NCBI GenBank assembly: GCA_037139515.1
Contig: JBAXGH010000001.1
Span: 16,101-80,100, forward strand
DNA from: a bacterium
Lineage (GTDB): Bacteria; Patescibacteriota; Patescibacteriia; JBAXGH01
Direction of reading: 5' to 3'
Length of the DNA stretch: 64,000 nt
In this document: positions 25,047 through 27,958 of the stretch, piece after piece
Layout of the letters: the number at the start of each line of letters is the position of its first letter
Numbering within the stretch: position 1 is the stretch's first letter
Notes under the pieces: generated by a model
The model's input: only the letters and a program-made list of their open reading frames with translations
Told to the model about the DNA's origin: nothing
Databases searched by the model: none
Translations under genes and position numbers: made by a program

Positions 25047-26078
25047 TTACGATGACCAACAGATAGGAGTAAAACTCGCGATAAGTTTACTCGCATTTCC
25101 GTGTGAGCACAGCCCTAAATACGAAGTTGTTCTTTCTTTAGAAGATTCTTCTAGTAATCTTCGCATCATTCGTTTTTTTGTCGCGGTTCGTAGAATCCGA
25201 TGATCCGAAAAATGCACCCAGCCAAGAAAATCAACCCCCGAAGCCAACGTTTCGATAAACACTTTATCAGGGTGCAGCTGCAACTTTAATCGTCGGCACA
25301 AAAAGTCATCAATCACAGGTAGTAGACATTCAAGATATTGTTTTTCGTGATGCAAAAATACAAAGTCATCCGCATAACGCAGATAATACTTTACCCGTAA
25401 TTCGTGTTTTACAAATTGATCAAATTCATTCATGTACGCATTCGCGAGCAGCTGCGAGGTCAAATTCCCGAGCGGCAGACCAATTCCCCCGTCATTCCCG
25501 CGAAGGCGGGAATCCATTTTAGGGTAACTTGTCACAATAGTCCTAAGGAGATCAAAGATTCGTTCATCAAAAATATAGCGACGTAAAATTCCAAGTAATG
25601 TATTTTGATCAATCGAGGCAAAGAATTTTCGTATATCGCATTTTAAAACCCAACAGGTTCGACGATGATTCAAACTCACTTTCCGCGCAAAATCACGAAA
25701 ACGATTCATGGCCGCGTGCGTTCCCTTCCAATTTCGGCAAGAAAAAGAATCCGCAACAAAGCGCTGGTCGAAAAACGTATACAATTTGCGATATAATGCG
25801 TGATGTAAAACCCGGTCACGAACCGAAGCCTTGTGAATATGACGCCGCTTTGGGTCGTTCACGAAAAAGTCTTGATATATTCCATGACGATATTTAGCTA
25901 CACTTAGTTCCTCATGAAGTGCTAAAATATTGTCTACAAGATGCCGTTCATATTCCAACACATCAGGCTTGCCGTGTTTCCCACAAGAAAATTCGCGCCA
26001 TGCTTCAAATAAATTTTCTAACGAAATAATTTCTTCAAAACTACGTTTAAAGCACCCAATATGGTTACCCCCCCCCAA
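25047..26078 (-). CDS. diversity-generating retroelement (DGR) reverse transcriptase
   Basis: RT motifs including YLRYADDFV (YxDD) and the DGR-specific GLPLGNLTSQ (I/LGxxxSQ in place of the group II QGxxxSP). TR and VR lie 0.4-1.0 kb upstream on the same strand. The start is ambiguous: it is called as TTG inside a G9 run. Confidence 0.85.
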   Translation of the reverse strand: MGGGNHIGCFKRSFEEIISLENLFEAWREFSCGKHGKPDVLEYERHLVDNILALHEELSVAKYRHGIYQDFFVNDPKRRHIHKASVRDRVLHHALYRKLYTFFDQRFVADSFSCRNWKGTHAAMNRFRDFARKVSLNHRRTCWVLKCDIRKFFASIDQNTLLGILRRYIFDERIFDLLRTIVTSYPKMDSRLRGNDGGIGLPLGNLTSQLLANAYMNEFDQFVKHELRVKYYLRYADDFVFLHHEKQYLECLLPVIDDFLCRRLKLQLHPDKVFIETLASGVDFLGWVHFSDHRILRTATKKRMMRRLLEESSKERTTSYLGLCSHGNASKLIASFTPICWSS

Positions 26079-26082
26079 CGGG

Positions 26083-26436
26083 CTGAATGAACTCCCAATC
26101 CTTAAAAAGCTGACCGATGCCTACAAACTCTGGCACACGGCCTTTCGGCATCTGCCGAGACTTTCCCGCTTTACGCTTGGGGCTAAGGTCGACGCGATTT
26201 TTTGTGAAGTAATTGAGCATATTTTAACAGCAGGCTATGCAGCTCGAGAGAACAAGATTCTTTGGCTGCAAAGAGCCAGTATCAAACTCGATTCGTTAAA
26301 ATATTTTTTAAAATTAGCCTGGGAGCTGAAAGCACTTAACACTGGCTGTTTTTCCGAAATCTCACACAAACTGGTCGAAGTCGGAAAAGATTTGGGCGGT
26401 TGGCTGAAAGATCTTAAAAAGCAAACTCCCACATAG
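26083..26436 (+). CDS. avd: Avd-like four-helix-bundle protein (23S rRNA-intervening-sequence protein family), putative DGR accessory variability determinant
   Basis: LPILKKLTDAYKLWHTAFRHLPRLSRFTLGAKVDAI...VGKDLGGWLKDLKK matches the helical pattern of bAvd/PF05635 proteins. It is on the strand opposite to the RT. An ATG at 26061 would come into frame only if the C9 tract were C8. Confidence 0.55.
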   Translation: MNELPILKKLTDAYKLWHTAFRHLPRLSRFTLGAKVDAIFCEVIEHILTAGYAARENKILWLQRASIKLDSLKYFLKLAWELKALNTGCFSEISHKLVEVGKDLGGWLKDLKKQTPT

Positions 26437-26462
26437 GCGAGAGTTTGCAAGCAAGAAGAAAG

Positions 26463-26604
26463 TTGCGCACGGCCAGGAACCGATTGTCGGGATCCCACTG
26501 ATTACCGGGATTATCCCAGTTCAGGTTCAACTTACGCTTACCGGAATTCTCGTTCAAATACGGAACCTTACGATTACCGTCTGAATTCACGAAGTCCGAG
26601 CCGA
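26463..26604 (-). repeat. DGR template repeat (TR), 142 bp
   Basis: Matches 27003..27144 except at 20 positions. At 17 of these the TR has A on the minus (sense) strand. TR codons at variable sites are AAT/AAC/AAG/GAT/TAT. Confidence 0.85.
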
Positions 26605-26998
26605 TGTGTGCGTAATGCCGTCCGCTTCACCGCTTCCCGATTTCTCAAAAAGCTGTATCGCATTTGGTATCTTTGAATACCCTAGCATCACGCACCAAGT
26701 TTCTTCATACCAGGGACAAATCGAGAGCGCACTCACACAAAGCTTGCCTTGCATGATTCCGGCATACCGATAAATCCAGAGTTCGGCCGCCCACAGCCAT
26801 AGCGGTGGGAAACATATCGCCTAGACTCCGGTTAACATTATAACACCCAGTACCCGACTAATAAGAATCAAAGTAGGAGGGCTAAGCACCCGACCTCCAA
26901 AAATCAAAGTAGGAGGGTGTAAAAAAATTCGGATGGCCGAGTGTCCTAGGGCCTAAGAACCGGGAACAGAGTACCCAGGGACCAAGCGTCCAAGTTCC

Positions 26999-27958
26999 TC
27001 ACTTGCGCACGGCCAGGAACCGATTGTCGGGACCCCACTGACTACCGGGAAAGCCCCAACTCAAGCCCAACTCACGCCTACCGGAATTCTCGTTCAAACA
27101 CGGAACCCCACGACCACCGTCAGAATCCACGAAGTCCGAGCCGAGAGCTACGATCCAAGATTTTCTTTGAAGATCTGGTTTAGCCGCACCCAAGGCCAGT
27201 AATTCTTCAAGAGTCGCTGGGCGCAACCCGAGCGCATCCAGGCGATCTTCTATCTGCTTGGTAGTTAAGGTTTCGCCAAAGGCGACGGCGATAACTTCAA
27301 TTTCTGTTTTTTCTTTTTCCTTGCCAAAAATGTTTTTCAGAGCCGTTTTAGCACTTCGTTTCCGAGGAAAGTTCTTTTCATTGATATCGCCGTTTTTCCA
27401 GTCGTACTTCCCGGCCGCGATCATTTGTTCCAAGCTCTGACCATAATCAACTTCAACTTTTTCTTTAATTACTTTTTGATCTGGAAAACGAGTGAAAATA
27501 TTCTCGATATGAAGCTTAAAGATTCCCGGAAAAAGCGGGCCGATATAGGCTTTGATGTCAGGTCTGATTTCTTTCTCGCTTGTCGCGATTTGATCCAGGC
27601 GACAATCTAAAACAATCAGCGCGTCTTCTTTTAGATTGCGAGTTTCACGAATCTTGGCCACTCGCGGGTCGTTACCGCGACCAAAACCTTGAATCGGCGC
27701 TTCGATTTCATACAAGAAGATAAGCTCGTCTTTTGTGAGCAGTTCTTTTCTATTTATCTTTCGTTCGATGGCTGTGACTCGCTTCATGTCTGCGGACTGT
27801 TTCGCGTATTTTTCACCGTTCGGATATTCCTTTAGTTTTTTTCGCGAGCACATCGGCGATATAAGCATCAGTATTCTGGTTCGTACCGATGCCTCGGACT
27901 TCATTAAGATTGCCTTCGACAACATGAAGAGCGGCGCGCGGAATTTTCGGAGTTCCAT
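26999..27958 (-). CDS. DGR target (variable) protein, C-terminal portion carrying the VR
   Basis: The ORF ends 4 nt after the VR. Its N-terminal region overlaps the upstream ORF by 146 nt in another frame. Confidence 0.6.
   Translation of the reverse strand: MELRKFRAPLFMLSKAILMKSEASVRTRILMLISPMCSRKKLKEYPNGEKYAKQSADMKRVTAIERKINRKELLTKDELIFLYEIEAPIQGFGRGNDPRVAKIRETRNLKEDALIVLDCRLDQIATSEKEIRPDIKAYIGPLFPGIFKLHIENIFTRFPDQKVIKEKVEVDYGQSLEQMIAAGKYDWKNGDINEKNFPRKRSAKTALKNIFGKEKEKTEIEVIAVAFGETLTTKQIEDRLDALGLRPATLEELLALGAAKPDLQRKSWIVALGSDFVDSDGGRGVPCLNENSGRRELGLSWGFPGSQWGPDNRFLAVRK
27003..27144 (-). repeat. DGR variable repeat (VR) forming the C-terminus of the target gene
   Basis: VR encodes ...GSDFVDSDGGRGVPCLNENSGRRELGLSWGFPGSQWGPDNRFLAVRK followed by a stop. 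The TR equivalent encodes N/K/Y/D at the variable codons. Confidence 0.85.

What the first reader, a model, noticed from the sequence alone, without database searches (positions are those of the whole stretch)
26055..26440. Avd-like gene on the strand opposite to the DGR RT, with a C9/G9 homopolymer at the junction
The Avd-like ORF (26083..26436, +) is antisense to the minus-strand RT. Canonical DGRs have avd co-oriented with the RT.

- The only upstream ATG (26061) is out of frame by one C of the 9-C run at 26068..26076. A C8 tract would fuse ATG-VTPP to the Avd frame.
- The RT's annotated start is a TTG inside the same run (read as G9 on the minus strand).
- So the tract could be a slipped-strand phase switch for avd and/or RT expression, or simply a homopolymer sequencing error.
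- A hairpin (26421..26448) plus an A5/T5 tract sits between the avd stop and the TR.
Basis: partly seen in the sequence, partly recalled or inferred. Interest (0 to 1): 0.55.

Follow-up and report, generated by a model that had tools for sequence, protein, structure and literature searches.

The report
Hypermutable repeat gating a DGR
The nine-C run between the back-to-back avd and reverse-transcriptase genes is not a sequencing error but this genome's copy of a length-variable repeat kept at that spot across a huge group of CPR bacteria, where it probably acts as a random on/off switch for the machinery that hypermutates a target protein.

Summary
The reverse-strand avd is not an oddity: TR-(avd)-RT is the published "B3" architecture typical of CPR DGRs, and all 77 testable relatives have it.

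The C9 run is the real finding.
- **Conserved:** 74 of 77 relatives carry C6-C14 (mode C9-C10) at the same junction. The other three carry (CA)n or (GCCA)n there.
- **Out of place:** such runs are otherwise avoided (relatives: 66 runs of 9 or more, 2.25 expected).
- **Variable:** near-identical assemblies differ only in tract length (G9/G10 over 4.1 kb; G10/G11 with an identical RT).
- **Translated into:** on the avd strand an ATG open into the repeat occurs in 74/75 loci (42.6 expected). An RT His codon is CAT in 41/41, preserving that ATG.
- **Mostly out of frame:** the ATG is in frame with Avd in only 19/75.

In this window C9 is out of frame; C8 or C11 gives a 124-125-aa Avd.

Best reading: a slipped-strand contingency switch on Avd, and possibly on the RT, whose -10-like box abuts the tract. 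I found no prior description. The mechanism is inferred, not shown.

The parts
26999..27958 (-). DGR target gene (319 aa, no Pfam match) with the VR at its 3' end
27003..27144 (-). Variable repeat (VR)
   Evidence: 86% identical to the TR; 17 of 20 differences at TR adenines on the minus strand
26463..26604 (-). Template repeat (TR)
26416..26448 (-). Terminator-like hairpin (26448..26421) followed by UUUUU (26420..26416), 14 nt after the TR end and overlapping the avd stop codon
   Evidence: 12-pair stem, 4-nt loop, -20.6 kcal/mol, z = -4.5; conserved in relatives, 54 of 73 by a strict scan
26083..26436 (+). Avd (bAvd four-helix-bundle accessory protein) reading frame; no ATG/GTG/TTG between the tract and helix 1 (only CTG at 26083)
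   Evidence: PF22296 55.3 bits; start-codon analysis
26061..26090 (+). Leader ORF ATG-GTT-A-C9-...-TGA (MVTPPQRAE*); fused to Avd at C8 or C11
   Evidence: equivalent ATG leaders in 74 of 75 junctions against 42.6 expected
26068..26076 (.). C9/G9 simple-sequence repeat at the avd/RT head-to-head junction (candidate contingency switch)
25047..26078 (-). DGR reverse transcriptase; start uncertain (TTG 26078-26076 at the tract edge, or ATT 26060-26058); the relatives' ATG position is TGC here
   Evidence: NCBI annotation is only 304 aa

Best explanation
The C9 run is this genome's copy of a clade-wide, hypermutable simple-sequence repeat. It sits in the head-to-head overlap of avd and RT in CPR 'B3' DGRs.

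Shown:
- The repeat is conserved in position but not in length or even in unit type.
- Its length differs between otherwise identical assemblies.
- On the avd strand a selected ATG opens a short leader that reads into the repeat.

Inferred:
- Slipped-strand mispairing changes the repeat by one unit. That sets whether the ATG leader is fused in frame to Avd, so Avd synthesis, and with it mutagenic retrohoming, switches on and off at random within a population.
- In about 43 of 75 junctions the ATG lies exactly 7 nt after a TATnnT box, which suggests a leaderless avd mRNA.
- On the other strand the repeat lies 12-13 nt before the RT start and abuts a -10-like hexamer. The same length change may therefore also alter RT transcription.

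This window is at an out-of-frame length (C9). One deletion (C8) or two insertions (C11) would give a full-length Avd.
For: - Position conserved: C6-C14 in 74 of 77 relatives with RTs only 55-63% identical; (CA)10, (CA)9 and (GCCA)10 in the other three.
- Otherwise avoided: 66 G/C runs of 9 or more against 2.25 expected in the relatives, nearly all at the junction; the window has 1 run of 6 or more against 11.4 expected.
- Hypermutable: L008 (G9) against L082-L084 (G10), 0 mismatches and 1 gap, the tract, in 4,095 bp. Six assemblies with an identical RT whose ORF starts downstream of the tract: G10 four times, G11 twice. Within 90% RT clusters the frame upstream of the GGG stretch changes while the sequence downstream is identical.
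- Translated on the avd strand: an ATG open into the tract in 74 of 75, against 42.6 expected (0 of 20,000 simulations); opposite-strand control 38 against 35.9. The RT His codon opposite the ATG is CAT in 41 of 41 (background 57.5%, p = 1.4e-10). TAnnnT ends exactly 7 nt before the ATG in 43 loci, kept through xAT codons although the RT amino acid varies.
- No other route to Avd: 22 of 75 junctions, including this window, are out of frame and have no ATG/GTG/TTG between the tract and helix 1.
- All three repeat unit sizes (1, 2 and 4 nt) shift the frame.
- Window arithmetic.
Against: - In-frame states are under-represented: 19 of 75 for any ATG, and 6 of 43 for the -10-associated ATG (chi-square p = 0.026). 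This is not what a start codon normally fused to its protein would give.
- TTG at Avd residue 4 is enriched (27 of 60 Leu codons against 17.4% background), so many lineages could make Avd independently of the tract.
- In the P0042 lineage the VR differs between samples although both observed tract lengths are out of frame.
- One related lineage (P0045) has no tract at all.
- The window's own junction departs from the clade consensus: both hexamers lack the final T, and there is no RT ATG.
- No reads, transcripts or proteins were available. Homopolymer miscalls in assemblies could contribute to the apparent polymorphism.
Confidence: 0.5

Rival explanations
1. The repeat is a slippery or stalling site used at the RNA or ribosome level, not a DNA switch. 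RNA polymerase slippage or tRNA-Pro frameshifting on the C run gives a constant small fraction of in-frame Avd from any DNA length. Alternatively, the leader is a regulatory upstream ORF whose poly-proline codons stall ribosomes over the Avd start.
For: - The frame relative to Avd is spread over all three phases with in-frame depleted, as expected if the DNA-encoded frame hardly matters.
- A C run reads as Pro-Pro(-Pro) in every frame.
- A downstream TTG is enriched.
- VR diversity is seen with out-of-frame consensus lengths.
Against: - (CA)n and (GCCA)n at the same site encode no poly-proline and are not known slippery sites for ribosomes.
- Loci needing +1 and loci needing -1 are equally common (19 against 18), so there is no single programmed direction.
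- Leader ORFs end at very variable distances after the tract, 5-124 nt.
- DNA-level length variation is directly observed.
- From general knowledge: polymerase slippage is established for A/T runs rather than G/C runs.
Confidence: 0.2
2. The repeat is a non-coding promoter or 5'-end element. A G tract directly upstream of a -10 box drives the RT (a 'G(n)-TAnnnT-N7-ATG' module). The frame relation to avd is incidental. Length changes tune transcription or are neutral.
For: - TAnnnT abuts the G tract in 24 of 75 junctions against about 2.7 at other offsets (p = 7e-17).
- The RT start is most often exactly 13 nt after the tract.
- The same module occurs elsewhere in L016: G10-TATAAT-AATAGA-ATG before a signal-peptide protein, and G10-N12-ATG before a second Avd-like gene.
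- The terminator-like hairpin after the TR implies that the RT needs its own promoter.
Against: - No convincing -35 element (best scores 3-4 of 6).
- A 40-nt (GCCA)10 cannot serve as a 17-bp promoter spacer.
- It does not explain the selected ATG and open frame on the avd strand.
- The window's hexamer is TAACCA, and the codon at the usual ATG position is TGC.
- The window shows no genome-wide TAnnnT-N7-ATG enrichment.
Confidence: 0.2
3. In this particular window C9 is an assembly or sequencing miscall of a true C8, and avd is simply an ordinary ATG-initiated gene.
For: C8 gives a clean 124-aa Avd. Homopolymers of 9 or more are error-prone in short-read data (general knowledge).
Against: - Out-of-frame lengths are the majority state in 75 independently assembled junctions.
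- At C8 the only full-length RT frame with a canonical start (TTG) closes.
- The NCBI record encodes an identical RT segment, though that is not independent of this window.
Confidence: 0.05

Closest known systems
DGR architecture B3, TR-(avd)-RT, of CPR bacteria (Wu et al. 2018, PMC5758913; 'DGR clade 2' of Roux et al. 2021, PMC8144416)
   Same: Order and orientation target/VR - TR - reverse-strand avd - RT; a CPR host lineage; a target without recognisable domains.
   Different: Neither of the two papers I could read mentions a repeat tract, promoters or start codons at the avd/RT junction. The conserved hypermutable repeat and the ATG leader are additions to that description. Paul et al. 2017 could not be read.
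Bordetella phage BPP-1 DGR (mtd-avd-TR-brt)
   Same: The same parts: an adenine-specific TR/VR pair, an Avd four-helix-bundle protein and a DGR-type RT.
   Different: In BPP-1 all genes are on one strand and avd precedes the TR. The roughly 140-nt spacer RNA between TR and brt takes part in priming (PMC6182149). Here avd lies antisense between TR and RT, and a terminator-like hairpin follows the TR.
Translational phase variation by homopolymer or short repeats in 5' coding regions (Neisseria, Haemophilus and Campylobacter contingency loci; Bordetella bvgS C run)
   Same: A G/C run of 8-14 or 2-4-nt units just after a start codon; length polymorphism between near-identical genomes; many copies in the OFF frame.
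   Different: The gated gene is an accessory factor of a targeted hypermutation system rather than a surface structure or methylase. The host is a free-living or episymbiotic CPR bacterium. The tract is shared by two divergent genes.
Promoter-spacer repeats in divergent or single promoters (H. influenzae hifA/hifB (TA)n; N. meningitidis porA poly-G and opc poly-C; Bordetella fim C stretch)
   Same: A repeat directly upstream of a -10-like box, placed between two divergently expressed genes.
   Different: No -35 element could be identified. The transcription starts are unknown. The repeat also lies inside a translated leader on the other strand.

Membership tests
Diversity-generating retroelement (DGR) | TR/VR pair whose differences fall at TR adenines | tested here: met
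   17 of 20 mismatches at TR adenines on the minus strand; the other 3 lie at the repeat edge
Diversity-generating retroelement (DGR) | Reverse transcriptase adjacent to the TR with intact catalytic motifs | tested here: met
   RVT_1 at 74.9 bits; YADDF and LPLGNLTSQ conserved with 7 relatives
Diversity-generating retroelement (DGR) | VR at the 3' end of a protein-coding target | tested here: met
   VR 27144..27003 lies within the last roughly 50 codons of ORF 27958..26999
Diversity-generating retroelement (DGR) | Ongoing mutagenic retrohoming (VR variants within a population) | not testable with these tools
   No reads for this window. In a relative (P0042 lineage) the VR differs between samples.
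DGR architecture B3 (TR-(avd)-RT) | avd between TR and RT on the opposite strand | tested here: met
   Window coordinates; 77 of 77 relatives; definition in PMC5758913
bAvd (PF22296) | Profile match above the curated cut-off over the whole domain | tested here: met
   55.3 bits against a cut-off of 40; profile positions 3-106 of 107
Simple-sequence-repeat contingency locus (phase variation) | Repeat long enough to slip (mononucleotide run of about 8 or more), standing out from the genome background | tested here: met
   C9; the only G/C run of 6 or more in 64 kb, 11.4 expected
Simple-sequence-repeat contingency locus (phase variation) | Repeat inside a translated 5' region or a promoter, so that length changes alter expression | tested here: inconclusive
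   An ATG leader open into the tract is strongly selected, and C8/C11 fuse it to Avd. But in-frame states are depleted and a downstream TTG is enriched.
Simple-sequence-repeat contingency locus (phase variation) | Length polymorphism among otherwise identical genomes | tested here: met
   Met in relatives only: G9/G10 with 0 other differences in 4.1 kb; G10/G11 with an identical RT; frame changes within 90% clusters. No second assembly of this window's own locus was found.
Simple-sequence-repeat contingency locus (phase variation) | Reversible, high-frequency switching of the phenotype | not testable with these tools
   Needs reads, cultures or reporters
Intrinsic (rho-independent) terminator | GC-rich hairpin followed by a U run | tested here: met
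   Pattern met on the minus strand and conserved in relatives. Termination itself was not tested.
Leaderless mRNA promoter geometry (-10 box, about 7 nt, ATG) | TAnnnT ending 6-8 nt before the start ATG | tested here: not met
   Not met in this window: TAAAGC before ATG 26061, and TAACCA then TGC on the RT side. Met in relatives: 43 of 75 on the avd strand and 24 of 75 on the RT strand.

The most novel reading that the evidence does not exclude
A single hypermutable repeat is a two-sided switch. Its length simultaneously sets the reading frame of Avd on one strand and the promoter geometry or start of the RT on the other. Targeted hypermutation (the DGR) is then itself under stochastic, heritable, reversible control by a second, cruder hypermutation device. 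This would be a two-tier bet-hedging circuit conserved across thousands of CPR genomes.
Probability: 0.22. Interest if true: 0.85.

Novelty: new variant of a known kind. Interest (0 to 1): 0.7.

Why it matters
How DGRs are regulated is largely unknown, and uncontrolled mutagenic retrohoming should be costly. CPR bacteria are the group most enriched in DGRs (PMC8144416). A conserved slippage-prone repeat at the avd/RT junction would give these cells a simple way to keep diversification off in most cells and on in a few.

It would also extend contingency loci, known mainly from host-adapted pathogens, to uncultivated groundwater lineages.

Practically, it explains why gene callers give erratic Avd and RT models in this clade: RT lengths of 296-416 aa within 90% clusters, and a truncated 304-aa RT for this window. 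It also flags a site where assemblies should not be 'corrected'.

Tried and rejected
- **Other assemblies of this window's locus:** exact-protein look-ups with the RT and the 348-aa neighbour found nothing. A metagenome scan with the junction flanks found no hits.
- **Tract lengths among contigs encoding identical RTs P0089, P0080 and P0024:** rejected as uninformative. Those ORF calls read through the tract, so an identical protein forces an identical length.
- **Poly-G as the RT's Shine-Dalgarno:** rejected. The modal spacing is 13 nt, the tract is replaced by (CA)n or (GCCA)n in some loci, and the genome barely uses SD motifs (5 of 69 ORFs).
- **One-directional programmed ribosomal frameshift:** rejected, because +1 and -1 requirements are equally common.
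- **The -35/-10 spacer hypothesis:** no -35 above chance. The promoter scan of the window is at shuffle level (2 found, 1.9 expected).
- **Genome-wide leaderless geometry in the window:** no enrichment.
- **Known RNA families:** none. The only hit is FtrB at 25.8 bits against a gathering score of 66.
- **The 'SRLRGNDGG' stretch as an RT-disrupting insertion:** rejected, because that loop varies in length in relatives.
- **Literature:** six full-text searches found nothing linking DGRs with homopolymers, phase variation, slipped-strand repeats, contingency loci or leaderless expression at the avd/RT junction. Paul et al. 2017 and one 2026 preprint could not be read, so prior description cannot be fully excluded.

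Full report
**1. The observation**

The window holds a complete DGR on the minus strand.
- Target ORF 27958..26999, with the VR (27144..27003) at its 3' end.
- TR at 26604..26463. It is 86% identical to the VR, and 17 of 20 differences fall at TR adenines.
- An RT ORF at 26078..25047 (RVT_1, 74.9 bits).
- Between TR and RT, on the plus strand, a 117-codon frame (26083..26436) that matches Pfam bAvd PF22296 over the whole profile (55.3 bits).

C9 at 26068-26076 is the only G/C run of 6 or more in 64 kb. A first-order Markov expectation is 11.4 such runs, and 0.13 runs of 9 or more.

ATG 26061 reads MVTPPQRAE* at C9. C8 or C11 gives a 124-125-aa Avd.

The only ATG/GTG/TTG that opens the full RT frame is TTG 26078-26076, at the edge of the run.

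**2. The antisense avd is ordinary for this lineage**

A scan of one genome per GTDB species with the RT found 573 relatives. The best 80 (55-63% identical RTs) are all labelled as CPR/Patescibacteria or unclassified MAGs.
- In all 77 loci with upstream sequence, the Avd homologue lies directly upstream of the RT on the opposite strand.
- This is architecture "B3, TR-(avd)-RT" of Wu et al., which accounts for 90% of their CPR set (PMC5758913).
- Roux et al. place the CPR elements in DGR clade 2 (PMC8144416).
- The family is very large: 7,930 of the 8,000 candidates that were scored reached E <= 1e-60.

**3. The tract is a conserved feature of the junction**

Aligned on the Avd N-terminus, 74 of 77 relatives have a C run at the same place. 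Counting the window, the lengths are C6 once, C7 twice, C8 ten times, C9 twenty times, C10 twenty-six times, C11 eleven times, C13 three times and C14 twice. The other three loci have (CA)10, (CA)9 or (GCCA)10 there.

In the 606 kb of these loci there are 66 G/C runs of 9 or more against 2.25 expected. Only five runs of 7 or more lie away from the junction.

A sequencing error in this one window therefore cannot explain the tract.

Two related lineages differ. P0045 has no tract and a 20-nt gap between the genes. In P0036 avd is not adjacent to the RT.

**4. The tract length changes between near-identical genomes**

- L008 (G9) and L082-L084 (G10) show 0 mismatches and one gap, the tract, over 4,095 bp. 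An unconditioned metagenome hit, L100, has G10.
- For RT P0042, whose ORF begins downstream of the tract, six independent assemblies encode the identical protein. Four have G10 and two have G11. In L113 the only differences from L110 apart from the tract fall in the VR; other members also carry a few substitutions outside it (positions 99-105, 489 and 723-753).
- Three assemblies of P0028 all have G10.
- Inside 90% RT clusters, members share the sequence after the GGG stretch but read a different frame before it. Examples are ...GKIRRGGGTARR (G10) against ...GQNPQGGGTARR (G9, in two assemblies), MLAGGG against ...CVGRGGG, and GGG against GG.
- Look-ups with RTs whose ORF call spans the tract were uninformative by construction.
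- Caveat: assemblies can miscall long homopolymers, and I had no reads.

**5. The avd strand is translated into the tract**

- In 74 of 75 junctions an ATG lies within 60 nt upstream of the tract with no stop before it. Shuffles give 42.6, and none of 20,000 simulations reached 74. The RT strand serves as a control and shows 38 against 35.9.
- All three non-homopolymer loci also have such an ATG.
- Where the ATG lies opposite the conserved RT His (H-x-Y/F-E), that His is CAT in 41 of 41. Other His codons of the same ORFs are 57.5% CAT (p = 1.4e-10).
- In 43 loci a TAnnnT hexamer ends exactly 7 nt before this ATG, while neighbouring gaps give 0-4. It is maintained through an RT codon that varies in amino acid (D, H, N, Y, S, T) but is xAT in 39 of the 43. 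That set was selected for TAnnnT, which already forces a third-position T in the codon. Since one search found only 41 His-bearing loci by an independent pattern, essentially all of them carry the hexamer.
- This is the geometry of a -10 box and a leaderless start. That reading is an inference. The GATATC palindrome gives a hexamer on both strands.

**6. Frame relations**

- The upstream ATG is in frame with Avd in 19 of 75 junctions. For the -10-associated ATG, 6 of 43 are in frame, 19 need +1 and 18 need -1 (chi-square p = 0.026).
- Twenty-two of 75 junctions, including the window, are out of frame and have no ATG/GTG/TTG between the tract and helix 1.
- The Leu codon at Avd residue 4 is TTG in 27 of 60 cases against a 17.4% background (p = 7e-7). 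A tract-independent start probably exists in a subset.
- The same Kaiserbacteria element is in frame at G9 (135-aa Avd, MSELNPPSRTPPLRILPV...) and out of frame at G10.
- In the P0042 lineage the VR varies between samples although G10 and G11 are both out of frame. That lineage has AGGAG-TT-TTG after the tract.

**7. The RT side**

- In most relatives the RT start lies downstream of the poly-G, most often exactly 13 nt after it (10 ATG and 4 GTG). Seventeen junctions have no canonical start there, and many of these carry ATT or ATC at the equivalent position.
- TAnnnT abuts the G tract in 24 of 75 against about 2.7 at other offsets (p = 7e-17). No convincing -35 was found.
- L016 carries two further G10 runs with the same layout: G10-TATAAT-AATAGA-ATG before a signal-peptide protein, and G10-N12-ATG before a second Avd-like gene.
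- The window deviates from this pattern: G9-TAACCA-TATTGGG-TGC. Its RT start is therefore TTG 26078 or ATT 26060-26058. NCBI's model is only 304 aa and omits conserved N-terminal residues.
- If the TTG is used, the RT frame is open only at G9, among the lengths G7-G11 tested. TTG-initiated RT and ATG-initiated Avd are then mutually exclusive here.

**8. The hairpin**

On the minus strand, 26448..26421 forms a 12-pair stem with a 4-nt loop followed by UUUUU (-20.6 kcal/mol, z = -4.5). On the plus strand it is weaker and has no U run.

Relatives share the layout TR end (CGCAAC), a pyrimidine linker, a GC-rich stem and TTTT, overlapping the avd 3' end (54 of 73 by a strict scan).

It looks like a terminator, or a structured 3' end, for the TR RNA. 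That would leave the RT dependent on a promoter near the junction. This is an inference.

**9. Interpretation**

The common property of C(n), (CA)n and (GCCA)n is slippage-prone length instability in steps that are not multiples of three. Together with the observed polymorphism and the selected ATG leader, the best reading is a contingency (phase-variation) switch acting on Avd by reading frame. It may also act on the RT through the abutting -10-like box.

The excess of out-of-frame states would then mean that the DGR is kept off in most cells.

Rivals remain open: RNA-level or ribosomal slippage or stalling on the same tract, and a purely promoter-level G-tract module. A miscall of C8 in this window is possible but unnecessary.

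I found no description of this repeat in the literature I could search.

Noticed in passing
window 26416-26448 (minus strand); relatives L001-L080: A conserved terminator-like module follows the TR across the clade: TR end CGCAAC, linker TCTCTTCATTT, stem CTCTCC...GGAGAG, then TTTT, overlapping the last avd codons. It may define the 3' end of the TR RNA or stand in for the BPP-1 spacer structure.
   Followed up: partly
relatives, RT start region (e.g. L001, L006, L008, L015, L038, L063, L069, L074, L076): About a fifth of the RTs have no ATG/GTG/TTG near the N-terminus. Many carry ATT or ATC exactly where relatives have ATG, 13 nt after the tract, which suggests frequent near-cognate start codons.
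   Followed up: partly
L016 (reverse-complement coordinates about 2054 and 3903): Two more G10 runs outside the avd/RT junction: G10-TATAAT-AATAGA-ATG before a signal-peptide, peptidoglycan-binding-like protein, and G10-N12-ATG before a second Avd-like gene (MAQYQHLPIYSATFRLLKEFY...). These may be further phase-variable modules in CPR genomes.
   Followed up: partly
window 26849-26917: Two 33-nt direct repeats 36 nt apart (AGTACCCGACTAATAAGAATCAAAGTAGGAGGG and AGCACCCGACCTCCAAAAATCAAAGTAGGAGGG) in the roughly 400-nt gap between VR and TR. Each ends in AGGAGGG, in a genome that otherwise almost lacks SD-like motifs.
   Followed up: no
window 25485-25510 (inside the RT gene): A perfect palindrome, attcccgcgaaggcgggaat, encodes part of a length-variable RT loop (DSRLRGNDGG). 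It is the site of a weak sub-threshold Rfam hit (FtrB, 25.8 bits against a gathering score of 66). P0012 has a similar PSRNDGGI stretch.
   Followed up: partly
window 25047-26078 / P0001: The public NCBI annotation of this RT is 304 aa and starts about 39 codons inside the conserved N-terminal region. Within 90% clusters, called RT lengths range from 296 to 416 aa. Gene models around the tract are systematically unreliable.
   Followed up: yes
whole window: Only 5 of 69 long ORFs have an SD-like motif 4-18 nt before their first ATG, and G/C runs of 6 or more are about 11-fold under-represented.
   Followed up: partly
L114 against L110, positions 723-753 (TR of the P0042 lineage): The TR itself differs at four positions between assemblies (T or C in L110, A in L114). 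This is unexpected for an invariant template. It could be TR/VR chimeric assembly or real TR variation.
   Followed up: no
L090 against L087-L089 (Magasanikbacteria lineage), around positions 1198-1238: A 31-nt length difference near the avd 3' end and TR-proximal hairpin between otherwise identical assemblies. Avd gene calls change accordingly (91 aa, 69 aa or none).
   Followed up: no
P0131 (cluster of P0088): One RT variant reads GWG instead of GGG at the tract. This is a substitution interrupting the G run, which would stabilise its length.
   Followed up: no
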